Shown: one piece after another, positions 9,386-46,066 of the stretch
Position numbering within the stretch: the stretch's first letter is position 1
Layout of the letters: every line of letters starts with the position of its first letter
DNA from: a virus
Taxonomy: Duplodnaviria; Caudoviricetes
Virus record (IMG/VR): IMGVR_UViG_3300030101_003107
Coordinates: 1-63,999 of that record
DNA length: 63,999 bases
Reading direction: 5' to 3' (one strand)
The notes under the pieces: generated by a model
Databases searched by the model: none
Told to the model about the DNA's origin: nothing
Seen by the model: only the letters and a program-made list of their open reading frames with translations
Translations under genes and position numbers: made by a program

Positions 9386-12300
9386 TTAATCGTGAGCGTA
9401 ACATCTTGTTTTAGGCTTGTTTACCATGTTTTTACATCTAGAACTATCACGCTTAATAAAGCTGCATTGATTTTTGTTTTGTTTTTTCTCTTTTTTCTTT
9501 TGCTCTTTTAGCTCATCTTTAGCTTCTTGCTGTGCTTGACGTTTTAAATCTAAGTATCTTACGTATTGATTTTCTTTACCTTTGTTTACAACTACACGCT
9601 CACCAACTTGTAAATCCCAAGCACTCCAACCTAGCGTTAAAAATGCTCTTTGCATTGCTGTGTTTTCTTGATTTAAAGCTTCTCTAATGTTGTCCGTTTT
9701 TCTAAATAACCTATCAAGCGGAACATTAGTAGCAGCTGTTGTAACTTTTGCTGTAGCATCCCAAATAGGATTATTATAATCGAACGTGTCCATGCTACCC
9801 ATTATCTCTCTATTAAATTTATAAGCATTTAATGCACTATAAACTTTTCTAGCTTTTGATCCCATAGGCGGCGAAACTTGCACAGCTTCAACTACTACTT
9901 GACCATAATCAGCCCTAGACTTTCTTTCAGACTCAGAAATAAATCTCATTATAGTGTTTTTAATAGTTGCAACTGCAGCGCCTGCTACACCAGAGCCTCT
10001 TAGTATTGTATCAAGCATACTATTTGCTATTCTTGTAGCTCTTTGGTCTAGCGCGTCGTCTTCTTCGTCGTCAAAGCTTAAAGCAAATATAGCTGATTGC
10101 AAGGCAGAGAATATAACATTTTGTATAGCGCCGTAATATAATATTCTTGACACGTTACTTCTCCAGTCTCCACGATTATTAATTAAATCTCTACTAGCTT
10201 TTTTAATTAAACGATTATATTGCATAGGTGTATTAGCGAAAGCTAATATAAGACGACCTAATGGACTAGCTTGCTGTTGTGATATACGATCAGGTCTAGC
10301 CGACTGCTGAGTTTCTTGAGCTATTTCTTGAAAATCTAAAAAAGCTTTTTCTTCTGCAGCTTTTTTATTCATACCTTGCTTCGTATATGTTTCAACTCTA
10401 TTTCTATAAAACGTAGATCCACCAGAAGCAATAGCAAAACTATCAGCTATTTGTGTAGGTAAAAAACCTTTTTTAAGCAAATACGCAAGCGCAGCTTTAG
10501 CTTTGTTCTGAGCGCCTGCTACAGCATTAGCAAGTTCAGCTTCATTTACATTTATTTGTAAACCTGCTCGTCTAGCTTTTAAAAAGTCGGAGTTAAATAA
10601 CGTTGAAAAGTCTGACCAATATTGTTTTTGATTAGCAAAAGCTTTACCAGCTTTAAATATATTGTTATCGTCAAAGTTTATAAAGTTAACTGTAGACAAA
10701 GTTTGTAGTACAGCTGATCTTGCGTTAAAGAACATTATAGCGCCAACAGATCCGTTAACCCAGTTTGTCCAAGCTTGGCCATAAGTTCTACCTGAAGATC
10801 TATTTGTACCGTTTTCCATACGATATAATGAATCTTCTAAAGCGCTTCTAAATCTAGAGCCATATATAGCTTCTATTTTATTCATATTTTCAGTAGAAAA
10901 TATAATATTTTTATTTTCTATAAACTCTGCTAAATATTGTTTTCTACCTATTTTGTTTACAATGTTTTCTAAGTCAGAAGCTATACTTTCTACACTCCAG
11001 TTTTCACTTGGCTCTATCCAACCTTTATCTCTTTTTGATACAATGCTTAAAGCATCTGCAAATGTTTTTAAGTCTTGATCTGTGTTAACAACGTTTTTTA
11101 AATAATTTAAATCTCTTTTAGATATACCTGGAACTTCAAAGCCTGCTTTATCAAATAAATAAACTCTTATAGCATTATCAAAAGTAAAACCAGTATCTTT
11201 TTCTATTAACTTACCTAATCTTTTTTTAACGTTAGGTATTTCTTTTCTAAGTAGTTTATAATCGTCTAATATACTCATACGAGCTTCACTCATTTCACGA
11301 TCAGCTCTACCAAACGGATCTAGTAAAGCTTTTTTCATAAACTCCATATCAGCATCACCTTGTTTGCCTTTGCCGTAAAAGTCATATAATAAGCCCGCAA
11401 AGTCTTCAGCTGACGGTGGTACAAAAAATCTATATCTACCTATGTTTTTACCACGCTTTTGACCAACAACTCTTGAAAATATTTTTTCAGCTGCAACACC
11501 TTTTGTTCGCTCGATCATTTTGTTAAACTCAGAGCTCATGTCTTTGCTAAAGTTTATTCTTGCTTGTACGGATTTACCTTTAACATCTAGCTGATCAAAT
11601 ACATGTTTAACAGCTTCTACATTAGGTAAAGCATCGTCTACAAAGTACATATCATTATATCCCTCTTGATATTTTTCTAAAAACCAAGCTGCTTTAGCAT
11701 CGCCTTCGCTTTTACCAAGTCCAGTTATATTTTTTAAAGGTATATTAATACCTTGGCTTTTTAACCACTTGTGTATAGGTTCAGCAGCTTCTTGCATACG
11801 AGCTGTTAAAACAAACACATTACTAGGACCATACTTTTTTATTTGGTTTTTCATCTTCTGAAGTAGTGGCCCTTCTTTACCTCCTCTTACGTTTGCAAAA
11901 TCAGAAAAGTCAAATTCATAACCATCAGCCGCTAACTTAGGTCCATCAATAGGCCATTTGTCAGAAGGTATTTTAACTGTTTCGCCATCTTTAGTTGCTG
12001 TAACAAAGTTTTCACCGTCTATAATTAACGTTTCGTCAAAGTCAAAAGTAGACATACCTTTTGAGTCTTTGCTATAAGCTAGCACAGGTCTAACGCTAGA
12101 TATGTTTTGACTAATGCTAGAGTTTTGTTTTATTTCAGCATTTGGCTTAATTTTGTTTCTAGTTTGTAAAAAAGTATCTAAGTTGTTTTTAGCTTGAGAA
12201 GCTGTAATATCTCCATTTAAAAACTGATACAAAAGATTTTGTTGAGTGCTAATAGTTGATGCATCGCTATGCAAGCTAACGTCAACGCCTAAACCAAACT

Positions 12301-15300
12301 CTTCTGCTATAGTTTCACCTCTAGCATTTATTAAGTAGTTAGGATTTATTCCACCATCGTTAGCGTTTACTAATGGATTAAAATATCTTATCCACTTAGA
12401 TTTTAATCCTAACAATATATCAAGATGATATTCTAGCGGCGGTGCTTGAACAAAATTAAACTTAACGCCATTAATTTCACCTTTAAGCTTTTTATCGTAA
12501 GATAAAGGCAAAGATCCTTGAGCATAGTTTTCAAAAGCGCCATCAATATACAACTCTAAGTTGCCTTGCAAAGCTCTATTAAATAAAAATTTAGCAAAGT
12601 CGCTAGCTGGTAAAGTGTGTTCTTCTACGTTTTTTTCATTAAGAGTATTAGTAAATTCTAATGTTGATATAACTCTAGCAAAATGACCCATGTTCTGAGA
12701 AGTAGAAGCAAACATAGTAGCAAAATAAGGTATAGTCTCAGGTTGAGCTTGCATTATCTCTTGTATTTTAAGCCATACCTTTTTAGCGCCTATTATTGAT
12801 GATTCGTGATACTCAGAGTCTTTTAGTTTTTCCGCAACCGTTTTACCAGTTGATTTGCCGTATTTACCTACCGATGAAACAGCTGCAGTTATATCTGGAT
12901 CAGAAGGGGCAAACTTAGCTCCTTCAACAGAGCTTAATAAATCTTGTTTACTTGTAAAAGCAAAGTTTCTTTTTCTACCATTAGCTCCAGCTCCAGCAAA
13001 AGTTCCTACAGTTAACATTTCTATTGGAAAGTTAGGTGCTATGGTATTTTTTACAAAGTCTCTATAATTTTGAAGATCTGCGTCGTTATTAACTATGTCT
13101 ATAGGTTGAACATCTTGAGTAGCGGCAGCAACAACGCTTTTCCAAGCTTTGTTTTCTTGTCGAAGCATTTTGTTTAAGTCTGTATCTTCTTTAGAAAACA
13201 TATAGTTTGCCATACCGTCAGATATGCTAGTTAGCTCTGGATTTTGTCTTCTTATTTCTTGATTAGTTATAACTTTACCAAGTAAATCTGCAAGTGCTAT
13301 AACTCTAGCCGATGTATTTCTATTACGTGTTGGCTTACCGTCTATAATATCTATAAGCTCTAATAACTCTGAGTCTTTAATGTTTGTTCTTTTGACCTGA
13401 GTGCGCAAACCTGCTTTAGTTTTAGCTCTAGAGTCTCTTTTATTATAAAGTGTCTCTAATACAGTCTTAGGCACTCCTGTTGCTTTACCTGATGAATCAA
13501 AGCCTTGCGGTAAAGCTTGTATTACTAAAGCGGCATTAGCTTTAAACCATCTTTGCGCTGAAGCTACTTCTGCGGCTGTAAGATTTGCTTTGCTCTTAAT
13601 TTTATCAGGTGATATACCTAACAATTTACCAATAGTATTTCTAGCGGCATTTGGCACGCTCTTAAAATTAGACAATGTAGAAAACTTAGTTTCTTGTTCG
13701 TTTACCTCTGTAGTAACTTCATTTTGTATGTTTAACCTATCAGCTAATACTATATCTTTAGTTTTTCTTTCTGGCTGTTGCTCTACAGTTTCTTCAGCCG
13801 CAACACCTCTAGCCTCTGTTACATCATCTGTAAACTCTTCGCCTAACACTCTACGTGAAGCCTCAATAGCTCTAGCAGGTAAAAACTTATTTATGTAAGC
13901 AGCTAATGGTACGCCTGACTCAGGATTATATTTTTGTATAAGATCAAATATACCTCTTTCACCAGTGTTTATTTCATCAGTTAATAATTGTCTATCAAAG
14001 TTAGGCGCTTCAGATCTTCTCTGCACAAGTCTATTTACTATAGGTGCAAACTGATCTATAATACTCATAGCACCACCTACACCTTGATCTTGGTATATTT
14101 GTTGTACTCTATCAGAGGCTTCTTTTGAAAACTGTTGAACATCACCTGGTTTTATATCAGTAGGTAGTATGTCACCTTTAATTCCTTTAGCAGCTGATTT
14201 AATTAAATCTTTGTTTATATTGCCTGACTCTACAGACTCTACATAGTCTCTAAAAAAGTTAAATACATCTTGATTAGTGTTAAACTTATATTCTAAACCA
14301 GTTGTATTTTTAGTAAATCGCTTGACAACATCTTTTAATCTACTAAATAAGTTATCGTTAAATTTAATATCACCATTTTGAACTGCTTCAGCTGCTAGTG
14401 TAAATACTTCTTCGCTTTTACCTTCAGCTTCTGTATATTGATCTAATCTTCTTTTAAAATCAGTACCTTCTATAGCTATATTGTTTTCATCAAAGCTTTC
14501 TAATAAAGCATCACCAAATGCTTTTCTTGCGGCTTGATTACCTTGCAAAGTAGCAAAAAGCAAAGCATGTCCAAACTCATGTGTAAGTGTAGTCATAACG
14601 CCGTCTCTTAGCTCAGACTCTTGATTTATAAATATTTCTAAACCACCTTTACCGTCTTGTCTTATAGCACCATATCTAGTAGACTCACCTTTTAATATTT
14701 CTTCTCTTTTTCTAAACTGTTCGCTTTGAGATCGTTTTTCTTTTCTTGCTTCTGCTATTTCTTCTTGTGTAGAACTAGGATCGTTTATTATTTCGTCCAT
14801 AGCTTGAATAGCACCTATATCAAACGAAGCTTGTTCATCGTCTCTTCTCCAGTTAACAAAGTCATTAGAATTACCTTTACGTATATCTACATTAACGCCT
14901 TGTTGTTTTAAAGCTTCGGCTTGCAGCGACACATTTTCAAATAACTTTTCTCTACGAGAGTTTTGAGCGCTTTCTATTAAGTTAAAGTTATCTTGATTAC
15001 GTTTATTTATTTTATCTAAAATTAACTCTTTGTCTTTATCAGTTTTAGCTCTTCTTAGTTTATTTTTTTGCTTGTGAATAGCATCTAAGTTTTGAGCATA
15101 AGTTTTAAGTTGAGAATTACTTAAAGAGTTAAAAGTTCTATATAAGCTTTTTTTATTAGCTACTTGCGCGTTGTTAAGATCTTTTATTTCCTCTTGTATT
15201 CCAGCTTTTTCAGACTCTTTAGCTGTTTCTAACTGTTTTACTTTAGCATCAATTTGCGTGGCTATATCAAATTGTATATTTTTAAACTGTTGTGGCGCTA

Positions 15301-16765
15301 AATAATTATATACTTGTTCTACTTCTTTTGGTTTTGTAGCAACACTAGTTACTGATGCAGCAGGACCACCTAGCAAAGCACCTATACCAGCATCATGTAT
15401 AACATTTGTAAAAAACTCTTTACCACCTATCTCGTCGTCAAATATAAACATATCTCCAAGCTGCTGCAAAGTTTTATTCGCTCCTTCTGTAGCACCTTCT
15501 GTTACAAAACCACCACCAAACTTTGAAATAGCGTTAGTAGTATAACTTCTAATATAGTCTGTAACAGCTTTTTCGCTAGCACCTACTCTTCTTAATCCTA
15601 CTACATCTCTAAATAATCTAGCTCCCAAATATTCTGTACCCCACTCAAACAAACCATCTGTACTACTAGTTAAATATAACTCTCCAATAGTAGCGTCTGG
15701 TCTTTCTTTTAAGTTTTGTTCAAAACTACTACCAGCTGCAGAAGTACCTAAAGCTATACTACCATACATTGGAAAACCAATTGCTAAAGCCAAAGAAGGT
15801 ATGTTAGATAAAGCTTGCTCAGAAGCTACTTTAGCAGCGTTAGGATAATCACCTTTTTTTATAAGATCAATATACGTCATGGTGTTGCCGTCTTCATCTC
15901 TAACGTTAGTCATGTGACTTCTTAGTTTAGCTGAAGTGTATTTTAGCTGTTCTGTAGGTATATCTGGATATGTTCTTTGTACAATCTCTAGTGGTAAACC
16001 TGTTGATTGAGCTATTAAAGGTTTTAAGCCATAATTGTTTACAAAATCAACCATACCAGCGGTTAAATCTAGTGTTACTGCTTTTACACCAGACAAATAA
16101 GGAATTAAAGCTTTAGGAATGTTTGAGTTTGCTGATAGTTTAATTTTTTCGGCTTCTGCTATAGCGTCTTGAAGATCATAACCTGTTTTTTTATAAATCT
16201 CTTTACGCTCGTTTAAATCTAGTTGTCTAGCTTCAAGATCTTTGCCAGCTTCAGCTGCTTTAAAAAAATTATCTCTAAGCGTATAATATTCGTCTAAAGT
16301 TTCTTGAGGAAAGTTTGCAGGAAGTTTTTTATTTTCATCTAATTGCAAAGCTATGTTTTGATTATAAAAACCATCAACAACATCTTTAGCATTATTTAAT
16401 TTTTCAGTGTATTCTTCTATTGTTTTGCTTAGCTCTCTTTGTTGAACTTCTAAAGGCACTATATCAACTTCAGGTAAAGTTACGCCTTTTATAGTATCGT
16501 CTTCTACTCTTGCTCCGGGCACAACGTCAAAACCTGAAGCTTGAACTTCTGCTATAGTTTCAGGATTATTTGTGTAAGTAGGAAACTCCGATAAAGATTT
16601 TGCCGAACTGGATGCCGTACTTTCTGGCTCCGCAGGGGCATCCACTTTCTGGGGAGCTTGTTCTTTTTTTGTTTCGACGTAGTTTGTAATAAAGCCTTTT
16701 ATTTCATCATCAGACTTTCCAGCATCGATTAGTTTTTGAATTTCTAATTCTAACTCTTCGTTCAT
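9386..16765 (-). CDS. Giant virion/ejection polyvalent protein (zincin + sigma70-like + HAD + helical C-terminus + CCCH finger)
   Basis: Third gene of the post-tail ejection trio; HEFGH at aa 729; sigma region-2-like GIFDLIQKYNPESGVPLAAYI; HAD FDFDETL..LTAR..FVDD; terminal C-x9-C-x10-C-x2-H. Confidence 0.85.
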   Translation of the reverse strand: MNEELELEIQKLIDAGKSDDEIKGFITNYVETKKEQAPQKVDAPAEPESTASSSAKSLSEFPTYTNNPETIAEVQASGFDVVPGARVEDDTIKGVTLPEVDIVPLEVQQRELSKTIEEYTEKLNNAKDVVDGFYNQNIALQLDENKKLPANFPQETLDEYYTLRDNFFKAAEAGKDLEARQLDLNERKEIYKKTGYDLQDAIAEAEKIKLSANSNIPKALIPYLSGVKAVTLDLTAGMVDFVNNYGLKPLIAQSTGLPLEIVQRTYPDIPTEQLKYTSAKLRSHMTNVRDEDGNTMTYIDLIKKGDYPNAAKVASEQALSNIPSLALAIGFPMYGSIALGTSAAGSSFEQNLKERPDATIGELYLTSSTDGLFEWGTEYLGARLFRDVVGLRRVGASEKAVTDYIRSYTTNAISKFGGGFVTEGATEGANKTLQQLGDMFIFDDEIGGKEFFTNVIHDAGIGALLGGPAASVTSVATKPKEVEQVYNYLAPQQFKNIQFDIATQIDAKVKQLETAKESEKAGIQEEIKDLNNAQVANKKSLYRTFNSLSNSQLKTYAQNLDAIHKQKNKLRRAKTDKDKELILDKINKRNQDNFNLIESAQNSRREKLFENVSLQAEALKQQGVNVDIRKGNSNDFVNWRRDDEQASFDIGAIQAMDEIINDPSSTQEEIAEARKEKRSQSEQFRKREEILKGESTRYGAIRQDGKGGLEIFINQESELRDGVMTTLTHEFGHALLFATLQGNQAARKAFGDALLESFDENNIAIEGTDFKRRLDQYTEAEGKSEEVFTLAAEAVQNGDIKFNDNLFSRLKDVVKRFTKNTTGLEYKFNTNQDVFNFFRDYVESVESGNINKDLIKSAAKGIKGDILPTDIKPGDVQQFSKEASDRVQQIYQDQGVGGAMSIIDQFAPIVNRLVQRRSEAPNFDRQLLTDEINTGERGIFDLIQKYNPESGVPLAAYINKFLPARAIEASRRVLGEEFTDDVTEARGVAAEETVEQQPERKTKDIVLADRLNIQNEVTTEVNEQETKFSTLSNFKSVPNAARNTIGKLLGISPDKIKSKANLTAAEVASAQRWFKANAALVIQALPQGFDSSGKATGVPKTVLETLYNKRDSRAKTKAGLRTQVKRTNIKDSELLELIDIIDGKPTRNRNTSARVIALADLLGKVITNQEIRRQNPELTSISDGMANYMFSKEDTDLNKMLRQENKAWKSVVAAATQDVQPIDIVNNDADLQNYRDFVKNTIAPNFPIEMLTVGTFAGAGANGRKRNFAFTSKQDLLSSVEGAKFAPSDPDITAAVSSVGKYGKSTGKTVAEKLKDSEYHESSIIGAKKVWLKIQEIMQAQPETIPYFATMFASTSQNMGHFARVISTLEFTNTLNEKNVEEHTLPASDFAKFLFNRALQGNLELYIDGAFENYAQGSLPLSYDKKLKGEINGVKFNFVQAPPLEYHLDILLGLKSKWIRYFNPLVNANDGGINPNYLINARGETIAEEFGLGVDVSLHSDASTISTQQNLLYQFLNGDITASQAKNNLDTFLQTRNKIKPNAEIKQNSSISQNISSVRPVLAYSKDSKGMSTFDFDETLIIDGENFVTATKDGETVKIPSDKWPIDGPKLAADGYEFDFSDFANVRGGKEGPLLQKMKNQIKKYGPSNVFVLTARMQEAAEPIHKWLKSQGINIPLKNITGLGKSEGDAKAAWFLEKYQEGYNDMYFVDDALPNVEAVKHVFDQLDVKGKSVQARINFSKDMSSEFNKMIERTKGVAAEKIFSRVVGQKRGKNIGRYRFFVPPSAEDFAGLLYDFYGKGKQGDADMEFMKKALLDPFGRADREMSEARMSILDDYKLLRKEIPNVKKRLGKLIEKDTGFTFDNAIRVYLFDKAGFEVPGISKRDLNYLKNVVNTDQDLKTFADALSIVSKRDKGWIEPSENWSVESIASDLENIVNKIGRKQYLAEFIENKNIIFSTENMNKIEAIYGSRFRSALEDSLYRMENGTNRSSGRTYGQAWTNWVNGSVGAIMFFNARSAVLQTLSTVNFINFDDNNIFKAGKAFANQKQYWSDFSTLFNSDFLKARRAGLQINVNEAELANAVAGAQNKAKAALAYLLKKGFLPTQIADSFAIASGGSTFYRNRVETYTKQGMNKKAAEEKAFLDFQEIAQETQQSARPDRISQQQASPLGRLILAFANTPMQYNRLIKKASRDLINNRGDWRSNVSRILYYGAIQNVIFSALQSAIFALSFDDEEDDALDQRATRIANSMLDTILRGSGVAGAAVATIKNTIMRFISESERKSRADYGQVVVEAVQVSPPMGSKARKVYSALNAYKFNREIMGSMDTFDYNNPIWDATAKVTTAATNVPLDRLFRKTDNIREALNQENTAMQRAFLTLGWSAWDLQVGERVVVNKGKENQYVRYLDLKRQAQQEAKDELKEQKKKEKKQNKNQCSFIKRDSSRCKNMVNKPKTRCYAHD

Positions 16766-19161: not shown

Positions 19162-22100
19162 CTATTTGCTACTTTCAACAGCGTTTAGCGCTGCAGCAAA
19201 TAACTCAGATTTATTTTCAAAATCATTATTTCTCCAAACACATCTTGCATAGTAGCCTTTAACTCCAGAGTGTTCAACAGGATTTTGTGTTAATACAAGC
19301 AATATTGAGCTTATATCAACGTTATAATCATCTACAATAGGGCCTAATGCTTCAAATAGCTCAGGTGTAGATACATTTGTTGTTATTGACGTAGAATCAA
19401 AACTTACCACGCTTCCAAGATTTACAAATTGACCTACAGTTTCTGATGGAGGAATAACAGTTGGATTATCACCTACGGTAGTACGCATTACGCGCACGTT
19501 AACACCTTCTTGAATAACAGCCATGTTTATAATTCCTAAATCAAATGATATTGTAAAACCTAGGCTACCATCACTATTTTCTACAATGCTTGTTGGTATA
19601 CCTAAAGGAGCTATATATTTTTGAAAATCTTCACTGTCTGTAGATAAAGTATCACCTTGTTTATCGTCTATATTTACATGCATTAAATTATTATGCCATT
19701 TGTTTTCTTTATTCTTAAAGTTTATTGACATACCCTGCTCAAGATCTGTTGTAATTCTACTTATCCACCATCCATCTTTGTTTAAATTAGTAGATAACAC
19801 GCCGTCGTTATTGTTAGATATAATTCTAGCTTGAGTACCTTCATAGTTAGTATAAGTAAAGTCTTTTACAGTGCCAGGCATTTCGTTATAAACTAAAGCA
19901 ATTCTTGGCTCTTGACTACTAGGCTCTGATTGAAAATAACCTTCATAAAAGCCGTATTTAGCTACTACGTTGTCATGATGATAATGCTCGCTGCTAATAC
20001 TAAAATATTGATTTTTTAAACTATATCCTTGAGCATCTTTATAGTATGTTCTAAAAGAAGTCCAAGCGTTTAAGCTTTCGTCCCAAGCAATAGTCAAATA
20101 GCCAAAAATTTCATCTTCTATATCTGTAAGATCAAAGTTTCTACAAGATAAAAGATATTCGTTTTTATCAATATCATAACTTCCAAATATATAACTATTT
20201 TGATCTCTAGCGTCTGATAGTTGGTTTTTAAAATAAGAGTCCATACCTTGATCAGATATTATAGTCATACCATCTTTTGATAATCTTATAACAACACCAC
20301 GTTTGGCATCGGTAAAGTAAGATCTAAAACCATATTGAGCAAAAGACTCAGGATTATTTGATATACCATATTCACCGTCAAAAGCAACAGATTGACCTAA
20401 AACTTTATCAGTAGCTAATAAATCAGGATTACCATCAGCTTTAAATATTGCATCTTTTTGAGAAAGAACTTTTAAAACTTTATCTTCACAAAGAACTATT
20501 AAATCATTTGCTCTAGAGTATAGTTTTTGTATAAATCCGTGATCTGGATTAAATCTTTTAGTTATACCTAATGCTTCTATAAACTGATTAGTCTCGTTAA
20601 ATCCACTATAAGAATTATATATACCTGAAAATATTAAACCTTCACCAACCTTAATTTCAGCATAATCTTCATATATACTAGATGCCTTAACACCTTTTTG
20701 TATTCTAGCTCCATTAAAAGAGTTTTTAACAGTAGATATTTCTATACCGTTTCCAAAGCAGAAACAATTATAATAAGGTAAAGCTATAGGTGTAACTACA
20801 TCGTTTACTAAACTAAAGTTTGATAAATGCGTGTGTCTTTTTACAAGAATAGTATCACTATTAACAACGCTTTCTGCTACGGTAACGTATACGTGCTCTC
20901 CAACATTTAATCTTCCGCCTCTATGCTCTTGTATTTTTAAGACTAGTTGATCTGGATTAGCAGGAACAGTTATGGTTACAGGTTGACTTAAAGTTATTGT
21001 AGTATACAAAGCATCATTAATATTATGTCTACCAACATTAGTTGATACAGATGTTACTGTAATTGGAGTAAGATCAATATCGTCAAGAATACTAACCCCA
21101 CCATCGCCATCATTATCACTTGTATATAGTAGAGGAAAAGTAGTATCACCTACTTGAACAACGCTATTTAAACCTAAAGCGCCGCCTGGGCCTGGTATTA
21201 AAGCAGTATAATAATAAGCTTCTACCATACGACCAACTTTAATAAACTGTTCGTCAGTTTCATCGTCTAATACTATAGGATATGCTTGAGAAGCTTCATA
21301 ATATAAGTCTGTATCATAATTAGGTTTTGGCAATGTTTCAAATACACCTTGTGTTTTAGCTGTGTTCGGGCCAGGTAACGGGCCTACGTCATTGTTCACT
21401 ACTAATGGTCTATCAGTTTTTACATAAACAAAAAACTTACCTTCAAAAACGTTTGGATCATCGTCTAAAGCATCAATTAAAGCTTCAGGCACTTCATTTC
21501 TTATTCTTTGAACTTCATATTCAAGATTAAGATTGTCTGACTCATAGTTGTTTGTTACATTAGACAAATCAGGATCTGGTTGTCCAGATTTTCTATGAGC
21601 TCTTTTTTGTATTAGTATATCGCCTTCTTGAACTTTGTTTCTATGATCAGAACTAAATATTAAAACACTATTAGTTTTTTCTGTTAAGCTACTTGCTTGA
21701 GCTTCAACAGAAGCGTCATCTTCACCGTCAACATTTATAAAATGTCTAATTTCTTCTAATGGTAAAACATTATAATCTAAAGAAGTATCTTTAACAAAAA
21801 ATTTATATGACTTAGCCCAAGTTGGATGTGGGTTTTTAACTATTACAGATATTCTTTGTGTTTTTTTAGAGTCTTCTGGACTTACTTTTATAATAGCTTG
21901 TCTATTAGTTAAAACAGGTGTTTCTCTACCAAACTCATCTCTATAAACAATACCAACTTGATAAGATCTATAAGATTTAATAGACTCCTGTGGTACGCCA
22001 AAGTTAGGGTTTGTTCCAGCGAAAGCTTCTTCAAAAACTTCAATAGCTCCATCGTCTGAGCTAGCACCTATAATTATTGGGTTACCATCAGGTCCAAGTA

Positions 22101-25100
22101 TTTCATTTATTTCTTGATTAACATAGGTGTAAAGTCCTACTTCAAGATTAACTTTTATATCAGAAGAAGATATAATTTCGTTATTAAAATCAAGTACTGT
22201 TTCTACTAAGTTGTAGTCTTTTAAGTAATTACCATAAACAACTCTATTAGCAGTAACTTCTTGTGCTTTAGCTGATTTTGGCACAGAGTCAAAAGGTCTT
22301 AATATTTGATTAGGATCTATTGTTAAACCTAAAGTATTAGCATTAAAAGGATGTAAGCCTGTATAAGATCCGTTTGCTGGTAAATTATATTCACCATCTC
22401 TAAAATCATATTTTTTTACAGCATATATATTATTTGCTTCTTCACTTTTAACTACCAACTCTACAGCTTTTACATCATGTGGTAAATTTTTTGGTGTCCA
22501 GTCTATTAATCTTAAATCTTTTATTTCATTAATTAAAGATATGTAATAGTTTGGCCAATCTATTTTTTGATTTAAAGTTCTCCAAATAACTGTAGTAAAA
22601 GGCGCAAAGCCAGAGTATTCGTTGTCTTCGTATTGATACCTGTAAGAAAATCTTAACATAGCTTCTCGTAAAGACTTTTCATCAGCTAATCTGCCTGCGC
22701 TGCTACCTTCATATTGAGAAGCTAAACTAACAGACCAAACTTGAGGAAGAGGTGGACCATAAAATTTTGGATTACCTTGAGAGTCAACTAGCAAACCATC
22801 GCGGCCCCAATTTTGATTAGTAGTCCAATAAGGTGATCTTCTGCCTTTGTAATCTTTAGGTAACATTGCTGCGTTTTTAGTACTGTCACCTTCTCCAATA
22901 ATAATAGGGCCTTCATCGCCTGGTCTTACATACTTATTGCTTAAATCAACTCTTAACGATGGATCTAAAGGATCTTTAGCGTTGTTTTCATCTATTTGAA
23001 TAGTAATAATATATTGGCTAATAAAATGCTCTGTAGAGAAAAAACTTGGCGGTAAGTCTACTACTGTACCGTCATCTAATACTATTTCTTCTCCACCAGG
23101 ATCAGTGCCATCAATTATAGTTTGATCAACTAACCCATCATTTAAAAATATAAATTTATCTTTTAAATCAGTATAAACATTACCAAGGTTATCAGTGAAA
23201 CCTACATTGTTAGGAACACCATTTATAACTGCACCAGCTCCTGCTGGGCCTTCAGGCCGCATGTTTACATGCTCTATTTTTGTTATTGTAGCTTTTACTA
23301 AATCAGCAAACCCGTCGTGTCTTCTGCCTGCAAACCGTGTACTATTTAAAAAATTAGCTCCTAGTGGATTTGCAGGGCTATTGAAACTAAGCTCTTGAGT
23401 ATCTCCAAAGTCTTGCCCACCTTGATTGTCTATTGTCCAAAGATCTTCATCTACAAAACCTCCTGTTTCTTCTAAAACCGAAGCAGGTGTGAAAAAGCTA
23501 TTGTCGTCTTCATCTGTATAATAAACATCAGTATATCTACCAACTGCGTTACTTCTTCTAGTATTACCTTGACCTTCTAATACAATTTTGTCACCAACAC
23601 TAAATCCATGAGGTTGAACTACAAATCTTCCAGGCCCTGTAGGTCTATATAAATTATTTTCGTTTAAATCAATTCTACCATTATGCACAAAATCAGCCAT
23701 TGGACCATCGTCAGGATCTCCACCTAAACCCCAATATTCGCTAATAGCAGCTAAATTTTGCGAAGGGCCTGATATATTAGCTTGTGAAAAAAGACCACCT
23801 AAATGATAAGCTTTAGCTATACCGTGCTGATTTGCATAAATAGGTGGGGCAACATCACCATCAAGAAGATACCCTCCAGGCATTTGATTTGTGTAGTGTA
23901 TAACATCACCTTCTGATCCAGCGTTACCACCAAAAGAACTGCCAGGACTAAAAGATACTAGCACGTTTTCATTTACAGAGTTAGCACCTACACCTCTAGT
24001 ACCACCTGCGCCTGAATAATTTTCCCAATAAAACGGCTCTAACGCTTGATTAAAGACACCATCATCTTCAGTAATTCCTGAAGCCATACGCATTGGACCA
24101 ACTGGAATAATATGTCCATCAGTTGGATCATTAAAAAAACCAAAAAGTGGTCCAAGCTCTTGGTAAGAGTCCATACCAGCGTTTAAATAATTTTTAAACA
24201 ATGGGTAAGGCGCTGATGGTTGTGAGTTTGCTTGTACATTTTCAGCTATAGCAGTTGGAAAAACTAAAGACTCTATAGTATATCCGCGTGGATCGTCTTG
24301 ATTAAAAATGTTAGCTGGAACACCAAAAAATCCATTGCCAGCTCCCATTGGATCTAGCGCGCCAGTTCCTGGGGCAGCAGTACCGTAAATACTTCCTCTA
24401 GATGCTTTTACATAAGCGCCCCAAGATAAAGTGTCAGGAATATCAAGAGTCATGCTGTTTCTAAAGTCCATAGCTTGGTTGCCATTTACATCAGCATACG
24501 GAATAAAAGATCTGAAGTTATAATAAGTATCAGGGCCTAAGCCTACTAACGGCTCACCCAGTCCATCGTTAGTAATTAATCCACCGGCTTCGTTATAAAA
24601 ACCAGCTTCGTTTAAAAATGCAACTGCAAACTGTAATGTTTTACCACTTGCGTGGTTTGGATGTATAGGAAAAGGATGCGTCATAACACCTTTAGTTGGA
24701 CCAACTGTTTTAACGTCTGAGTCGCCAACCACAGCACCCACATCAGTTAACACTTTTAAATGCTCTTCTGGATTTGGTCTTATAACAGTACAGTGAGACT
24801 CTATAGTTCCACCTAGCCCTGTATTTATAGCATTGTTTGCTATAACAGCGTTATCGTGATACCCGTTAAACTGCCAACCAGGAACACCTTGAAAGCCTAA
24901 ATTGTTATCAGAGTTTTCTCTTAATAATCTAGTATGAAAAAGTCTTCTATCTGTAAGCCAGTCTGGATATACCGACTGTTGATCAGATAAAGTACCTACT
25001 TTAGATCTATTTATTTGTATTTTTTTAGGTTCGTTTTTATTATCTGTAAAAAATATTAAACCATCAAATACATTTATACCTGTTATATATCTTGAGTAAT

Positions 25101-32723: not shown

Positions 32724-35141
32724 TTATTTTGGTGCAAAAGCTTCTAGACCAAATCCACTACCAAGTATATCATTACCTGATGATTCAAACTTTTTAGGTG
32801 ATCCACCTGTTTTTCTTTGATCTATAAGTTCTGACTGTTGGCTTGCTTGTATTTTTGTTCTTTCGTCTTTACGGTCTTCTTTTTCTTTTTCTCTACTTTT
32901 TAAATTGTTAGACTGCGCATTTTGAATTTGTTGATTATATTGAAACTCTAAAGCCATTAACTGCTTTTTAAGTTCAACTTCTAAATTCATTTCTTTTTCT
33001 TTAAACTGAGCTTTAGCTTGTTCTACTTGTATATCAGCTTGAGCTTTACTAGAGTGCTTTTGTTGTTCTAGTTGTGCAGCTAACTGTTGCTGTTGAGCGT
33101 TAGTTTGAGCTTGTTTATCCATATTAGCTTTTTGAGCTGCAGCAGCTGCTTCCATTTTCTTTTTTCTTCTAATCTTTAAAACTTGATTAGCTAACTTAAG
33201 ATTTTTAATTTGTCTAATATCTATAGCGTCTTCAAGATCAAGAGTTTGCTGTTGTATAGACATTTGTATATTATTTTCAAGTCTTTGTTTTTCATCTTCA
33301 TCTGGAGATACTTGTAAAAATATACCAAAGTCATATAAGTGCATTTTGCTAATTTCTTCTAAGTTAGCAACACTATGAGAACCTATAGCTTGAATAAAAG
33401 CTTCTTTAGTTGGTGAAAACTCTAATATATCTGATATTCTAAGAGACATAGACTCTAAAACATCAGCAACTAAAAACATGCCAGCTTGAAGAATATGACG
33501 TGTAGCTGTGTTTGAATTTTGAGCGGCTAGTTTTTGCAAACCTACTAAAGCGTTTTTATCAGGTGTGCTACCATCTCTAGCTTCGTTTAAACCAGTAGTA
33601 TCACGTATCATTTGTAAATAATAGTTATAGTTTCCTATTAGCGCTTGCATTTTGCTACCACCATTACTATTTCTTATTTCTTGTATAGGTACTTTACCAG
33701 GATTCATATCTCCATCTTGAGTCATTGATCTACCAATAACACTACCTGTTTGGAAAAACATGTTTAAAGCTTCTTGTGGATTATAGTTTGTACCGTTACC
33801 TAAATCTATTTCAGCTAAACCATCTGCATCTAAGTAAATACCGTCAGGTATTATCTTAGACATTACTTGTTGTATTTTTAAATGAGTAAGCTGTATCATA
33901 TCAGCAAAACCAGTTATACGACTTACTATACTTTCTATTCTGTTTTCATACATGCGAGGAGCAACAATACTATAATTCATTTTAACTTTAGTATAGTCGC
34001 TTTTAGGCCTAATCATGTTTTTACACATTTCCCACTTTAAAAGTTTTTCTGCACCTAAAACATAAGCACCTTCATATAAAACTTCAACTTGTTTTGATAT
34101 TCTTTGAAAATTTTCACTATTAGGTGGGTTAAAGCTGTCATCTTTTTCTATAGCTCTTTCTAAACCAACAGATGTTTCTTTTACTTTATAAACATTATTC
34201 ATATAAGTTTTATAATTAAAATATAAAACTTGAACTATATTGTTATCTTTATTTTGGCTGCTATATCTATTATTAGCTTTTCTATTGTAGTTTTTGTTAG
34301 TTATATCTTCTAAGTCTTGTTGACTTAAAAATGGAAACTGCTTGGCCAGCTCGTTTACAGGTATTTCTTTTACTTCGCCTACATAGTATATATCTTCAAA
34401 AAATGGAGACTCAGTATACGAATAAACCATATTAGCTGGATCTACGTAATCTACAGTTAAACCTTCAGATGTATTAAAATTAGTTTTAACCGCACCTATG
34501 CCTATTACTGCTAAATCATAAAAAAATCTTCTTTTAATTAAATCAAACTTATTGCCTTTTAATAAAACATTTAGCGCTTGCTCTTGAGCTATTTCAGCTT
34601 CTTGTTTATAGCTAAGCTGCATGTGAAGCCCTAACTCTTCTACACTGTCAGGTAAAGTTTCAGGATTATTTTCATACATGTTAACACCAAGCTCTTTAAG
34701 AGAAAAATCTTTTAACTCTTTTAACTTCATGTCTTTTAATATAGATTCCATGTACTCAGTTCTTTTACTAGCTCCATAAGGATCTTGTGAATGAGCTTTT
34801 ATAGAATAGTCTTTATCAGTCATGCCGTTTACGACTATGTCGACAAATTTAGGTATAATAGGAACAGGCTTCCAGTCTAAGTTTAAATAAGATAAATCAC
34901 CGTTTATAGACAATTCATCTTTATATTTTTGTATTGGTTGCTCGCCTCTAGCATAAAGTCTTAAACTTCTAAATGTATCTCCATTTGAAGTATATCTTCT
35001 TGAATAATAATTTTGTCCATTATTGCCATTATAAAACCATTCAGCTTCAATAGCTTTTGCTATTTTTAAACCATAGTCATAGCTTACTTTTTCTATATCG
35101 CTTACTGCTTGACTTGGAAAATAATTATTTGGTGACTTCAT
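32724..35141 (-). CDS. Portal protein
   Basis: Directly follows the terminase; LRLYARGEQ, PIIPKFVDIVVNG, IRDTTGLNEARDG; long C-terminal coiled coil. Confidence 0.88.
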   Translation of the reverse strand: MKSPNNYFPSQAVSDIEKVSYDYGLKIAKAIEAEWFYNGNNGQNYYSRRYTSNGDTFRSLRLYARGEQPIQKYKDELSINGDLSYLNLDWKPVPIIPKFVDIVVNGMTDKDYSIKAHSQDPYGASKRTEYMESILKDMKLKELKDFSLKELGVNMYENNPETLPDSVEELGLHMQLSYKQEAEIAQEQALNVLLKGNKFDLIKRRFFYDLAVIGIGAVKTNFNTSEGLTVDYVDPANMVYSYTESPFFEDIYYVGEVKEIPVNELAKQFPFLSQQDLEDITNKNYNRKANNRYSSQNKDNNIVQVLYFNYKTYMNNVYKVKETSVGLERAIEKDDSFNPPNSENFQRISKQVEVLYEGAYVLGAEKLLKWEMCKNMIRPKSDYTKVKMNYSIVAPRMYENRIESIVSRITGFADMIQLTHLKIQQVMSKIIPDGIYLDADGLAEIDLGNGTNYNPQEALNMFFQTGSVIGRSMTQDGDMNPGKVPIQEIRNSNGGSKMQALIGNYNYYLQMIRDTTGLNEARDGSTPDKNALVGLQKLAAQNSNTATRHILQAGMFLVADVLESMSLRISDILEFSPTKEAFIQAIGSHSVANLEEISKMHLYDFGIFLQVSPDEDEKQRLENNIQMSIQQQTLDLEDAIDIRQIKNLKLANQVLKIRRKKKMEAAAAAQKANMDKQAQTNAQQQQLAAQLEQQKHSSKAQADIQVEQAKAQFKEKEMNLEVELKKQLMALEFQYNQQIQNAQSNNLKSREKEKEDRKDERTKIQASQQSELIDQRKTGGSPKKFESSGNDILGSGFGLEAFAPK

Positions 35142-45326: not shown

Positions 45327-45356
45327 ACAGACTAGTTACGACATGTATTGGATAAT
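45327..45356 (+). promoter_or_regulatory. Early promoter motif, copy 1
   Basis: ACAGACTAGTTACGA-catgtat-TGGATAAT. Confidence 0.8.
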
Positions 45357-45394
45357 ATATATGTAAATAAAATATAAACTTAAACTAAATTATT

Positions 45395-45625
45395 ATGTCA
45401 CAAGAAACATTAACTAAAAAAAGATTTGTAATATCAAAGTCACTAATCGGTAAAAATGTATTAATTACTTTTACAAATAAAAAAGGTGAAACATATACAT
45501 ATGACCACGACGCAGTATACAGTGCAAATCAAGAAAAGTTTGAAACAATGAATTGTTTTCAAAAGTACGGAAATTATACTAATAGTAATAATGTACCAAC
45601 ATTCGGTCGTAAGTTCACAGTGTAA
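45395..45625 (+). CDS. Early hypothetical protein
   Basis: First ORF of the plus arm, after motif copy 1. Confidence 0.75.
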   Translation: MSQETLTKKRFVISKSLIGKNVLITFTNKKGETYTYDHDAVYSANQEKFETMNCFQKYGNYTNSNNVPTFGRKFTV

Positions 45626-45627
45626 AA

Positions 45628-45847: not shown

Positions 45848-45875
45848 AATAATGTAAATAATAAATAATAATAAT

Positions 45876-46052: not shown

Positions 46053-46066
46053 TAAAATAATATACT

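What the first reader, a model, noticed from the sequence alone, without database searches (positions are those of the whole stretch)
13585..14075. Sigma70 region-2 and HTH-like motifs embedded in a virion protein
Seen: IIDQFAPIVNRLVQRR...DRQLLTDEI...GIFDLIQKYNPESGVPLAAYINKFLPARAIEASRR parallels the sigma region 2.1-2.4 pattern (L..LV..IA.R...DL.QEG..GL..A..KFDP.RG..F.TYA...IR..I). Further downstream, RNTIGKLLGISPDKIKS resembles a region 3/4 helix-turn-helix. A sigma domain inside an ejection protein is unusual. It could act as a true sigma, or as a decoy that displaces the host sigma from core RNAP.
Basis: partly seen in the sequence, partly recalled or inferred. Interest (0 to 1): 0.82.

Follow-up and report, generated by a model that had tools for sequence, protein, structure and literature searches.

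The report
Sigma-like RNAP-binding domain in giant phage protein
A giant protein in the particle-building gene block of a 64-kb marine phage carries a very conserved domain predicted to fold like the polymerase-binding part of a bacterial sigma factor, so the phage may bring its own transcription starter into the cell.

Summary
The quoted peptides are real. They lie on the minus strand, aa 902-1058 of a 2459-aa ORF (9386..16765), in the virion gene block of a complete 64-kb crAss-related podophage.

Region-2 claim: supported by fold, not by profiles.
- Pfam Sigma70_r2/r4 do not hit it. In this genome they hit only a separate 250-aa sigma gene (53128..53880).
- The AlphaFold model of aa 878-983 (block pLDDT 75-95) puts sigma domain 2 at ranks 1-26 of 48,161 PDB chains (Z 8.5-5.7).
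- A co-fold docks its region-2.2-like helix on the Flavobacterium beta' clamp helices (ipSAE 0.67; best control 0.00).
- It is the best-conserved stretch of more than 900 giant metagenomic proteins and is absent from 50,697 GenBank phage records.

Region-3/4 HTH claim: not supported. aa 1005-1185 folds as one compact domain with no known relative (best Z 3.1).

Best reading (about 0.45): a polyvalent virion protein (zincin HExxH, sigma2-like, unknown domain, HAD, C-terminal domain). It would deliver a sigma2-type clamp-helix binder that captures host core RNAP on the entering DNA. A conserved promoter-like motif, 7 copies on one strand, is a candidate target. Packaging, binding and promoter use remain untested.

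The parts
9386..16765 (-). Giant ORF (2459 aa, P0001), a multidomain 'polyvalent'-type protein in the virion gene block
   Evidence: It lies in a same-strand block with TerL, portal, PHROG 'virion structural proteins' and a crAss muzzle-like gene.
14366..14668 (-). Zincin-type metallopeptidase motif region (aa ~700-800); HEFGH at aa 729-733 plus E786
   Evidence: H729, E730, H733 and E786 are invariant in 22 full-length homologues. No Pfam peptidase family reaches significance (Peptidase_M50B, E 0.22).
13817..14134 (-). Sigma domain-2-like module (aa 878-983) with region 1.2-, 2.1-, 2.2- and 2.3/2.4-like helices
   Evidence: AF2 block pLDDT 75-95. VIA ranks 1-26 are all sigma domain 2, Z 8.5-5.7. 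Foldseek: 49 of 50 listed rows are sigma. Co-fold with beta' clamp helices: ipSAE 0.67 against 0.00. It is the conservation peak of the family.
13754..13816 (-). Acidic linker of variable sequence (aa 984-1004)
   Evidence: pLDDT is below 50 for model residues 100-122. The stretch is poorly conserved.
13211..13753 (-).
   Evidence: Model pLDDT 83, pTM 0.81. Best VIA Z is 3.1 of 48,161 chains. Best Foldseek E is 0.76. No Sigma70_r4 hit.
11546..12058 (-). HAD-type phosphatase-like region (aa ~1570-1740) with the DxDxT motif FDFDETL at aa 1574-1580
   Evidence: Motif found. Only weak hits: PHROG polynucleotide kinase E 0.07; Pfam DUF2608 E 9e-5 at 22.5 bits against a 22.6 cut-off, and NIF E 0.22. 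The HAD motif assignment is recalled.
9566..11548 (-). Conserved C-terminal domain (aa 1740-2400) of unknown function
   Evidence: Many invariant residues and high coverage among homologues. The Atlas gives leads to LPD38/LPD39 clusters only. No Pfam hit.
19162..26709 (-). 2515-aa crAss muzzle-like virion protein, two genes upstream of P0001 in the same block
   Evidence: Pfam crAss_MUZ E 9.5e-10, 37.7 bits against a cut-off of 27, N-terminus only. phrog_14478 'virion structural protein' E 1e-93.
53128..53880 (+). Stand-alone phage sigma-70-family factor (250 aa)
   Evidence: Sigma70_r2 E 2.6e-5, 24.3 bits with neighbours. Sigma70_r4 E 2.5e-9, 33.2 bits. 7999 of the 8000 scored candidates reached E<=1e-3; the 120 listed are 72-98% identical.
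45335..51290 (+). Seven copies of the promoter-like motif tTACAAA-n-tA-AATACGA-N8-GGATAATAt, at 45335, 45826, 46299, 46657, 48407, 49777 and 51269. Candidate target, not shown to be one.
   Evidence: Six exact copies and one with 2 mismatches, all on the + strand. 5-8 copies sit on the dominant strand in 5 of 5 related near-complete genomes. Consensus from 34 copies.

Best explanation
The 2459-aa protein is a polyvalent, probably virion-borne protein of a marine crAss-related podophage. Its most conserved part, aa 878-983, is a diverged sigma-70-family domain 2 with region 1.2- to 2.4-like helices.

Proposed mechanism:
1. The protein enters the cell with the DNA. The adjacent zincin peptidase may cut it into pieces.
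2. The region-2.2-like helix (DRQLLTDEINTGERGIF) docks on the clamp helices of the host RNA polymerase beta' subunit, the site every sigma factor uses.
3. A host core polymerase is thereby captured on the incoming genome and phage transcription is jump-started. This phage has no recognisable virion RNA polymerase, so the module would play the part that enzyme plays in crAss-like and N4-like phages.

The following 180-aa domain of unknown fold replaces sigma3/sigma4.

Shown here, in silico only: the fold, its conservation, and the predicted docking. Inferred: packaging and injection, real binding, and promoter-specific initiation.

My odds:
- sigma2-like fold: about 0.85.
- binds host beta': about 0.6.
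- the whole statement: about 0.45.
For: Fold.
- AF2 model from a 29-row alignment: mean pLDDT 81.6; blocks of domain 1 are 75-95.
- An unbiased VIA-align search of 48,161 chains ranks sigma-factor domain 2 at 1-26. Examples: SigB 8x6g_H, Z 8.5, rmsd 3.0, 86 aa; sigma32, 8.0; sigma28, 7.6; RpoS region 1.2+2 fragment, 7.4; sigma70 1sig, 7.0. These cover model residues 1-~105. The first non-sigma row is rank 27 at Z 5.6.
- 49 of the 50 listed Foldseek rows are sigma entries; best E 3.4e-3.
- Internal control: the next domain of the same protein retrieves no sigma; best Z 3.1.

Docking.
- Co-fold of aa 878-983 with F. johnsoniae beta' 1-450: ipSAE 0.65/0.67/0.67 against a best control of 0.00 (3 controls). 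Contacts agree at 83% or more; partner pLDDT is 82 or more. The tool's calibration: the mark was reached by 58 of 80 solved complexes and 2 of 110 mismatched pairs.
- The interface is beta' 288-319 with module residues 41-67, i.e. aa 918-944.
- In a Flavobacteriaceae beta' that aligns without gaps to PDB 9n9p_D, residues 288-319 read [32 protein letters not shown], the clamp-helix hairpin. Its identity as the sigma docking site is recalled.

Sequence.
- All 3 NCBIfam hits of aa 881-1080 are sigma models in collinear order (E 0.0013-0.011).
- SigI hits 5 of 29 family members, best E 1.4e-4.
- JGI named 1 of 24 short fragments 'specialized sigma subunit'.

Selection.
- aa 880-992 is the conservation peak of the family.
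- E931, I932 and G938 of the predicted contact helix are invariant or nearly so.

Context.
- The gene sits in the TerL-portal-muzzle block, where crAss-like phages encode their packaged RNAP (passages of bioRxiv 10.1101/2020.03.07.982082).
- No DFDxD motif occurs in any frame. The whole-protein profile finds no polymerase in the PDB.
- An HExxH+E peptidase motif lies beside the module. Iyer et al. describe the same arrangement for N4-type virion RNAPs, with 'jump-start transcription' as a theme (passages of PMC5512222).
- A non-host-like conserved promoter motif precedes the plus-strand early-region genes.
Against: Profiles.
- No curated profile recognises the domain. Pfam Sigma70_r2/r4 give nothing at E<=10 on the protein or in six frames.
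- NCBIfam scores are 15-18 bits against cut-offs of 190-378.
- 24 of 29 members do not hit SigI, and 13 unrelated families also appear once or twice.
- The family profile finds no sigma among PDB sequences.
- hhalign probabilities are only 1.2-5%.
- None of the 120 listed long homologues carries a precomputed sigma Pfam domain.

Structure.
- No Foldseek row reaches E<=0.001.
- VIA Z values of 5.7-8.5 are in the range the tool calls common for helical models.
- The models come from alignments of low diversity (Neff about 3).
- The co-fold may score from memory of solved sigma/beta' complexes. It used a stand-in host and my own alignment.

Function.
- No sigma4-like partner domain was found.
- The W433-equivalent wedge residue is Lys (sequence; numbering recalled).
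- Virion packaging is inferred from position only; the protein has no significant PHROG.
- The phage already has a complete sigma of its own. That sigma co-occurs with the module and the motif in all genomes checked, so the motif cannot be assigned to the module.
Confidence: 0.45

Rival explanations
1. Sigma mimic used as an inhibitor. The domain occupies the beta' clamp helices, keeps host sigma factors off core RNAP and shuts off host transcription, without initiating transcription itself.
For: - The predicted docking is at the shared sigma site.
- No sigma4-like domain was found.
- The wedge tryptophan equivalent is Lys (sequence; numbering recalled).
- The phage has a complete sigma of its own for promoter reading.
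Against: - Inference: a particle can deliver only a few copies, while a cell holds thousands of polymerases, so stoichiometric blocking cannot work unless the late-expressed protein acts before packaging.
- A blocker of the clamp helices would also exclude the phage's own sigma.
- The region 1.2-like and 2.3/2.4-like helices with invariant Y891, Y946, Y957, N959 and R965 are conserved beyond what core binding alone needs.
Confidence: 0.15
2. Polymerase tether for genome entry. The injected protein stays at the channel or the DNA end and holds a host RNAP there, so that transcription pulls the rest of the genome in. Transcription-driven internalisation is known for T7 (recalled). Promoter choice is left to the stand-alone sigma or the host sigma.
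For: - The docking and conservation evidence is the same as for the main reading.
- The domain is embedded in a very large protein with hydrophobic segments.
- All motif copies point one way across a 6-kb region next to the divergent junction at 45.1-45.4 kb.
Against: - A domain sitting on the clamp helices would exclude the sigma needed for initiation unless it hands over.
- Nothing here shows which genome end enters first.
- No data on timing.
Confidence: 0.15
3. Not an RNAP-related domain. It is a conserved helical bundle of an internal or ejection protein with a structural or other binding role. The sigma2 likeness would be convergent, or a bias of structure predictors toward a familiar pattern.
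For: - All profile tests are negative or below threshold.
- Z values are middling for a helical domain.
- The co-fold can pass 'from memory'.
- The position-equivalent 3859-aa protein of the nearest GenBank relative lacks the module, so it is not essential to this virion architecture.
Against: - 26 of the top 26 hits among 48,161 chains belong to one family and cover the whole domain, while the neighbouring domain gives none.
- The motif register D-x-I-[QN]-x-G-x-x-G-[LI]-[MF] of region 2.2, the K[FY]xPxxG turn and the region 1.2-like D-x-V...Y...G all fall in order (sequence; sigma70 patterns recalled).
- Three independent sigma HMMs hit collinearly.
- The predicted contacts use the most conserved helix.
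Confidence: 0.2
4. The giant protein hides a very diverged virion RNA polymerase, and the sigma-like module is its built-in promoter-specificity part. The motif would be that enzyme's promoter. One copy shares 11 nt, AATACGACTCA, with the T7 promoter (T7 sequence recalled).
For: - The continuous ~35-nt conserved motif resembles a single-subunit-RNAP promoter.
- The protein holds more than 1,000 residues of unknown fold.
- N4 and crAss virion RNAPs are also missed by standard profiles (passages).
Against: - No DFDxD motif.
- No PF00940 match, although that search's controls were silent too.
- The whole-protein profile finds no polymerase in PDB sequences.
- The co-fold places the module on host beta'.
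Confidence: 0.05

Closest known systems
Sigma-70 family domain 2 (regions 1.2-2.4), e.g. SigB, sigma32, sigma28, RpoS
   Same: - Predicted fold over the whole ~100-aa domain.
- Order and register of the 2.1, 2.2 and 2.3/2.4-like motifs.
- Predicted docking of the 2.2-like helix on the beta' clamp helices.
   Different: - Not detected by Pfam or curated NCBIfam thresholds.
- Embedded at aa 878-983 of a 2459-aa protein in a virion gene block.
- No recognisable sigma3 or sigma4 follows it.
- The wedge Trp equivalent is Lys.
T4 gp55-type minimal phage sigma (sigma2-like only)
   Same: A phage factor with only a sigma2-like core-binding and -10-reading part. The chain of the gp45-dependent activation complex, 7d7d_F, is among the matches (Z 7.0, rmsd 3.4, 93 aa). 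Its identity as gp55 is recalled.
   Different: gp55 is a small free protein made during infection for late genes and works with gp33 and the sliding clamp (recalled). Here the domain is part of a giant protein that is probably pre-made and delivered.
Virion RNA polymerases of crAss-like phages (phi14:2 gp66) and N4 (gp50)
   Same: - Giant proteins encoded in or next to the virion block and delivered with the DNA to transcribe early genes (abstract and passages of bioRxiv 10.1101/2020.03.07.982082).
- N4-type enzymes are fused to zincin peptidase domains (passages of PMC5512222). Here an HExxH+E motif sits beside the module.
   Different: - No DFDxD motif.
- No sequence match to any PDB polymerase.
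- The proposed activity is recruitment of host core RNAP, not polymerisation.
Polyvalent proteins of phages and conjugative elements (Iyer et al. 2017), and T4 Alt as an injected RNAP modifier
   Same: - Many domains in one giant phage protein.
- A zincin HExxH motif.
- 'Jump-start transcription' as a theme (abstract and passages).
- Atlas leads to LPD38/LPD39 clusters for the C-terminal part.
   Different: - The word 'sigma' occurs 0 times in the main text of that paper. Its supplementary domain catalogue could not be read.
- No LPD Pfam model hits.
- Alt acts catalytically. This module would act by binding.

Membership tests
Sigma-70 family (Pfam Sigma70_r2, PF04542) | Profile match to region 2 at or above the curated threshold | tested here: not met
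   No Sigma70_r2 hit at E<=10 on the whole protein or on aa 881-1080. The six-frame PF04542 search of the genome at E<=10 hits only 53227-53454 in another gene. NCBIfam sigma models score 15-18 bits against cut-offs of 190-378.
Sigma-70 family | Sigma domain-2 fold | tested here: met
   Tested on a predicted model only. VIA ranks 1-26 of 48,161 chains are all sigma domain 2: Z 8.5 (rmsd 3.0, 86 aa) down to 5.7, covering model residues 1-~105. 49 of the 50 listed Foldseek rows are sigma, but none reaches E<=0.001.
Sigma-70 family | Region 2.2 binds the beta' clamp helices of core RNAP | tested here: met
   In silico only. Co-fold ipSAE 0.67 against best control 0.00 (3 controls); contacts agree at 83% or more; partner pLDDT 82 or more. 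The mark was reached by 58 of 80 solved complexes and 2 of 110 mismatched pairs. The interface, beta' 288-319, is the clamp-helix sequence. The pass may come from memory of solved complexes. Binding itself was not measured.
Sigma-70 family | -10 element recognition residues of regions 2.3/2.4 (E. coli Y430, W433, W434 and neighbours; recalled) | tested here: inconclusive
   By the hhalign register, Y957 aligns with Y430, F961 with W434 and Y946 with F419, and all are conserved. K960 stands at W433. N959 and R965 are invariant.
Sigma-70 family (Pfam Sigma70_r4, PF04545) | Profile match to the region-4 helix-turn-helix | tested here: not met
   No r4 hit on aa 881-1080 at E<=10. The six-frame PF04545 search hits only 53677-53844 in the stand-alone sigma. 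One weak NCBIfam sigma-28 hit covers its region-4 positions: E 0.0013, 18 bits against a cut-off of 378.
Sigma-70 family | Sigma4-like fold downstream of sigma2 | tested here: inconclusive
   The model of aa 1005-1195 (pLDDT 83, pTM 0.81) gives a best VIA Z of 3.1 with no sigma row among the 50 listed. Best Foldseek E is 0.76. A missing match does not exclude the fold.
Sigma-70 family | Confers promoter-specific initiation on core RNAP | not testable with these tools
   Only a candidate promoter motif was found. It co-occurs with both the module and the stand-alone sigma.
crAss-like virion RNA polymerase (gp66 type) | DFDxD catalytic motif in a DPBB domain | tested here: not met
   No DFD.D or D[FY]DGD occurs in any ORF above 150 aa in six frames. 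There is no PDB sequence match for the protein or for its family profile.
Polyvalent proteins (Iyer et al. 2017) | Giant multidomain phage protein with a zincin-like HExxH...E peptidase domain | tested here: inconclusive
   H729, E730, H733 and E786 are invariant in 22 homologues. No peptidase profile is significant.
Polyvalent proteins (Iyer et al. 2017) | LPD-type associated domains | tested here: not met
   Pfam gives no LPD hit on aa 1740-2459 at E<=1. There are only language-model leads to clusters in which 28% (LPD39) or 88% (LPD38) of members carry the family.
Polyvalent proteins / virion cargo | Packaged in the particle and injected | not testable with these tools
   Position only: same-strand block with TerL, portal, PHROG virion proteins and the crAss muzzle-like gene.

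The most novel reading that the evidence does not exclude
In an abundant clade of marine crAss-related podophages the virion RNA polymerase has been replaced by a virion-delivered sigma factor. A sigma2-type domain, with a new DNA- or flap-binding domain in place of sigma3/4, rides in on a giant polyvalent protein. It loads the host core polymerase onto the conserved tripartite early promoter (TTACAAA / AAATACGA / GGATAAT) at time zero. The phage's stand-alone sigma takes over later.
Probability: 0.25. Interest if true: 0.85.

Novelty: new variant of a known kind. Interest (0 to 1): 0.68.

Why it matters
Phages are known to start their programme in three ways:
- with host sigma-dependent early promoters;
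- by injecting a complete RNA polymerase (N4, crAss-like, phiKZ-like phages);
- by injecting an enzyme that modifies host polymerase (T4 Alt).

A pre-made, injected sigma-type domain that captures host core polymerase would be a fourth way. It would explain how a crAss-related lineage manages without the giant polymerase.

The family is large in marine metagenomes (967 long homologues; 248 IMG/VR stretches) and has no GenBank phage member.

The domain is also a very diverged sigma2 that escapes current profiles, so it is useful for widening those models. The idea is directly testable with a pull-down and an in vitro transcription assay.

Tried and rejected
Searches that found nothing:
- Pfam on the whole protein and on five segments gave only sub-threshold noise: PH_4, zf-primase, DUF2608 and others.
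- PHROGs on P0001 gave nothing significant.
- phmmer and profile searches against PDB sequences found no sigma and no polymerase.
- tblastn of P0001 and of aa 878-1115 against 50,697 GenBank phage records found no match.
- The nearest GenBank relative by TerL (MW202828.1, 64.7% identity) has a 3859-aa protein in the same position. That protein lacks the module: hmmsearch --max gave nothing and the best blastp E was 0.061.
- PF00940 (T7-type RNAP) found nothing in the genome. It also found nothing in the 14 controls, so this says little.
- No tRNA or tmRNA was found.

Profile-profile comparison:
- hhalign against the phage's own sigma family gave the right register without significance. This held even after adding 11 sequences from the genome-contig scan.
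- That scan returned only phage-like sigma copies binned in MAGs, not diverse bacterial sigmas.

Protein Atlas:
- On aa 1005-1195 the best score was 0.77 (Peptidase_M49), which is uninformative.

Domain 2:
- Its fold searches found no sigma4 or HTH relative.

Side feature:
- The GC-richer intergenic stretch 48690-48985 has a fold z-score of -0.63 and no Rfam family.

Literature (search listings only):
- 'crAss-like' + 'sigma factor' + 'cargo': 1 paper, unrelated.
- 'virion' + 'sigma factor' + 'packaged' + 'ejected' + 'phage': 5 papers held, 4 listed; by title and abstract start none describes a packaged sigma.
- 'polyvalent proteins' + 'bacteriophages' + 'sigma': 15 papers, 10 listed.
- Read in passages: PMC5512222 has 'sigma' 0 times in its main text. 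PMC7824862 discusses phage sigma factors and polyvalent proteins separately.
- These searches do not prove that nothing is in print.

Steps that did not run:
- Building a domain-2 alignment from typed sub-sequences did not run. An alignment from stored ids was used instead.
- A Pfam scan of alignment A4 was over the size limit.
Full report
WHAT IS THERE

The finding's peptides are real but are encoded on the minus strand. The plus-strand frame of 13585-14075 is full of stops. They belong to ORF 9386..16765(-), 2459 aa, kept as P0001.

Positions:
- IIDQFAPIVNRLVQRR: aa 902-917.
- DRQLLTDEI: aa 924-932.
- GIFDLIQKYNPESGVPLAAYINKFLPARAIEASRR: aa 938-972.
- RNTIGKLLGISPDKIKS: aa 1042-1058.
- The same protein has HEFGH at aa 729 and a DxDxT string, FDFDETL, at aa 1574.

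GENOME CONTEXT

The window is a whole virus record: 63,999 bp, CheckV completeness 99%, 34% G+C.

P0001 lies in a long same-strand block containing:
- large terminase (35144..37354);
- portal (32724..35141);
- several PHROG 'virion structural proteins';
- a 2515-aa protein whose N-terminus matches Pfam crAss_MUZ (E 9.5e-10, 37.7 bits against a cut-off of 27).

TerL relatives are podophages of Flavobacterium, Cellulophaga, Tenacibaculum and Maribacter. Only one of 87 records exceeds 60% identity, at 64.7%. The host is therefore probably a marine member of the Flavobacteriia (inference).

In crAss-like phages this position holds the giant virion-packaged RNA polymerase with a DFDxD motif (abstract and passages of bioRxiv 10.1101/2020.03.07.982082). 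Here:
- no DFDxD-type motif occurs in any ORF above 150 aa;
- neither the protein nor a profile of 22 full-length homologues matches any polymerase among PDB sequences;
- PF00940 finds nothing, though its controls were silent too.

That P0001 is a particle or ejection protein therefore rests on position only.

CONSERVATION

- With aa 860-1110 as query, 967 proteins of 1352-4304 aa reached E<=1e-3 among 3147 candidates. The 120 listed are 52-91% identical over this stretch, and none carries a precomputed sigma Pfam domain.
- A full HMMER scan of 1.84 billion representatives found 329 at E<=1e-3 and 157 at E<=1e-30.
- IMG/VR holds 248 confirmed stretches on contigs up to 72 kb.
- GenBank phages hold none: tblastn of the whole protein at E<=1e-5 and of aa 878-1115 at E<=1 against 50,697 records found nothing.
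- The nearest GenBank relative, MW202828.1, has a 3859-aa protein in the same place without the module.

Within the family the shared core is aa ~700-1200 plus ~1550-2400. The sharpest peak is aa 880-992: SKEASD.VQ.IY..QG..GAFDII..FKPI..KIV.KR..APNFDRQLLTDEIETG.RGI.DLI.EY.PESGVPLAAYINKFLPARAIEAS.RVLGEEF.

IS IT SIGMA REGION 2?

Profile tests are negative or weak.
- Pfam finds no sigma family at E<=10 on the protein or on aa 881-1080.
- Six-frame searches of the genome with Sigma70_r2 and Sigma70_r4 hit only another gene, 53128..53880.
- NCBIfam gives three hits on aa 881-1080. All are sigma models and they are collinear: sigma-28 region-4 part, E 0.0013; SigI, E 0.0072; FliA/WhiG, E 0.011. Each scores 15-18 bits against cut-offs of 190-378.
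- Across 29 diverse family members, SigI hits 5 (best E 1.4e-4), FliA hits 2, and two further sigma models hit 1 each. Thirteen unrelated families also hit 1-2 members each.
- A family profile finds no sigma among PDB sequences.
Probabilities are only 1.2%, 2.6% and 5%.
- One of 24 short fragments of the family was named 'DNA-directed RNA polymerase specialized sigma subunit' by JGI.

The fold is clearer.
- An AlphaFold2 model of aa 878-1115 from a 29-row alignment has mean pLDDT 81.6. It shows a helical first domain (10-residue blocks 75-95), a disordered acidic linker at residues 100-122, and a second part.
- Foldseek against the PDB has no row at E<=0.001 (best 3.4e-3). Yet 49 of the 50 listed rows are sigma-factor entries.
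- VIA-align against 48,161 representative chains, independent of Foldseek, puts sigma factors at ranks 1-26, all on model residues 1-~105:
  - SigB, Z 8.5, rmsd 3.0, 86 aa;
  - sigma32, Z 8.0;
  - sigma28, Z 7.6;
  - the RpoS region 1.2+2 fragment, Z 7.4;
  - SigR, Z 7.3;
  - sigma70 1sig, Z 7.0;
  - down to sigma28/FlgM, Z 5.7.
- For three of these rows (7d7d_F, 9n9q_C, 6dxo_A) I take the chain to be the sigma from the entry title and chain length. The first unrelated row is rank 27 at Z 5.6.
- The tool warns that such Z values are common for helical models. The weight therefore lies in the uniform family, the full-domain coverage and the internal control: the next domain of the same protein retrieves no sigma.
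- The N-terminal helix (ASDRVQQIYQDQG) sits where region 1.2 sits in the RpoS and sigma70 matches. DEINTGERGIF parallels the region-2.2 pattern D-x-I-Q-x-G-x-x-G-L-M, and KYNPESG..AAY parallels KFDPxxG..TYA (sigma70 patterns recalled).

DOES IT DOCK LIKE SIGMA?

A co-fold of aa 878-983 (alignment) with residues 1-450 of F. johnsoniae beta' (Swiss-Prot RPOC_FLAJ1) gave these results:
- ipSAE 0.65, 0.67 and 0.67 in three runs, against 0.00 for the best of 3 controls;
- contacts agree at 83% or more, and partner pLDDT is 82 or more;
- in the tool's calibration the mark was reached by 58 of 80 solved complexes and 2 of 110 mismatched pairs.

The contacts join beta' 288-319 to module residues 41-67 (aa 918-944), plus 19-23 and 95-100.

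In a Flavobacteriaceae beta' that aligns without gaps over 1-450 to PDB 9n9p_D, residues 288-319 read [32 protein letters not shown]. This is the clamp-helix hairpin, known as the main sigma2 docking site (recalled). That RPOC_FLAJ1 has the same numbering is inferred.

The tool cautions that such a pass may reflect likeness to solved sigma/beta' complexes rather than binding by this copy. A stand-in host and my own alignment were used.

THE 'HTH'

RNTIGKLLGISPDKIKS is not a recognisable region 3/4.
- Sigma70_r4 does not hit it.
- Modelled alone (24-row alignment of stored ids, pLDDT 83, pTM 0.81), aa 1005-1185 forms one compact alpha/beta domain.
- Its best VIA Z is 3.1 of 48,161 chains, with no sigma row among the 50 listed. 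Its best Foldseek E is 0.76.
- A missing match does not prove a new fold, but nothing supports sigma4.

THE REST OF THE PROTEIN

- H729, E730, H733 and E786 are invariant in 22 homologues. This is the HExxH...E signature of zincin peptidases. Iyer et al. describe it as the commonest domain of injected 'polyvalent proteins' and as always fused to N4-type virion polymerases, with 'jump-start transcription' as a theme (abstract and passages of PMC5512222). No peptidase profile is significant here.
- The HAD-like part has only borderline hits.
- The C-terminal 660 aa is strongly conserved. It has only language-model leads to LPD38/LPD39 clusters.
- 'Sigma' occurs 0 times in the main text of Iyer et al.. 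Their supplementary catalogue could not be read.

OTHER TRANSCRIPTION FEATURES OF THE PHAGE

- ORF 53128..53880(+) is a bona fide sigma-70-family protein: r2 at 24.3 bits, r4 at 33.2 bits. 7999 of the 8000 scored candidates reached E<=1e-3.
- The motif AATACGA-N8-GGATAAT occurs six times exactly and once with 2 mismatches. All copies are on the plus strand between 45335 and 51290, upstream of the small plus-strand genes.
- Five of five related near-complete genomes have 5-8 copies on the dominant strand, clustered.
- 34 aligned copies give tTACAAA-n-tA-AATACGA-N8-GGATAATAt.
- Four of four related genomes tested also have the stand-alone sigma. MW202828.1 lacks the module, the sigma and the motif.
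- The three features therefore travel together, and the motif cannot be assigned to either factor.
- GATAAT keeps the A and T of a -10 hexamer, and the TTACAA block lies 20 nt upstream of it. One copy shares AATACGACTCA with the T7 promoter (T7 sequence and promoter rules recalled).

HOW IT MOST LIKELY WORKS

Shown in silico:
- a sigma2-like fold;
- extreme conservation of its 2.2-like helix;
- predicted docking on the clamp helices.

Inferred:
- The protein is packaged and injected.
- Few copies can be delivered, so a binding domain is effective only on the incoming DNA. It would capture a host core polymerase there to start early transcription, and possibly to draw the genome in.
- It would thus do by recruitment what crAss-like and N4-like phages do with a packaged polymerase.
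- The same copy-number argument makes a stoichiometric decoy less likely. A clamp-helix blocker would also exclude the phage's own sigma.

My odds:
- sigma2-like fold: 0.85.
- binds beta': 0.6.
- full mechanism: 0.45.
- decoy: 0.15.
- entry tether: 0.15.
- unrelated helical bundle: 0.2.
- hidden polymerase with a built-in specificity part: 0.05.

VERDICT

The region-2 interpretation is supported structurally but fails every curated profile threshold. The HTH interpretation is not supported.

The thing works like a sigma2 domain but cannot be filed as a member of the sigma-70 family on sequence grounds. I found no printed description of a sigma-type domain in a virion or polyvalent protein in searches and passages 55 and 96. 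These are limited searches, and supplements were closed.

I rate it a new variant of a known kind, with interest 0.68.

Noticed in passing
window 53128-53880 (+): A stand-alone phage sigma-70-family factor of 250 aa, with Pfam r2 and r4 hits. It is extremely common in metagenomes: 7999 of the 8000 scored candidates reached E<=1e-3, and the 120 listed are 72-98% identical. One relative (G001) carries two copies.
   Followed up: partly
window 45335-51290 (+); also L099-L103: A conserved ~35-nt promoter-like motif, tTACAAA-n-tA-AATACGA-N8-GGATAATAt, with 7 copies on one strand. It is conserved in 5 of 5 related genomes and absent from MW202828.1. One copy shares 11 nt with the T7 promoter (recalled). 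Which factor reads it is unknown.
   Followed up: partly
window 48690-48985 (+): A ~300-nt gene-free stretch, visibly richer in G+C than its surroundings, ending in a tRNA-like T-arm string (GGTTCGATTCC). ARAGORN finds no tRNA or tmRNA, Rfam has no family there, and the fold z-score is -0.63.
   Followed up: partly
window 42295-43863 (-) and 42051-42308 (-): A phage-encoded GroEL-type chaperonin (phrog_5725, E 2.6e-135). The small ORF next to it was not scanned. The relative MW202828.1 annotates groEL plus a 10-kDa chaperonin.
   Followed up: no
window 9386-9480 (-), aa ~2430-2459 of P0001: The C-terminal tail has the Cys/His pattern C-x9-C...C-x2-H after a lysine-rich stretch. It gives a weak zf-primase hit (E 0.01-0.045), so it may be a zinc knuckle. 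Coverage among homologues drops here.
   Followed up: no
whole window: No DNA polymerase was seen among the 29 ORFs scanned with PHROGs. Primase/helicase, ligase, RNR and MazG-like genes are present. About 50 small ORFs were not scanned.
   Followed up: no
L083 (MW202828.1 741-12320, -): The nearest GenBank relative has a 3859-aa ORF annotated 'reticulocyte binding/rhoptry protein' at the position of P0001. It has no detectable similarity to P0001, so the giant protein at this position is replaceable.
   Followed up: partly
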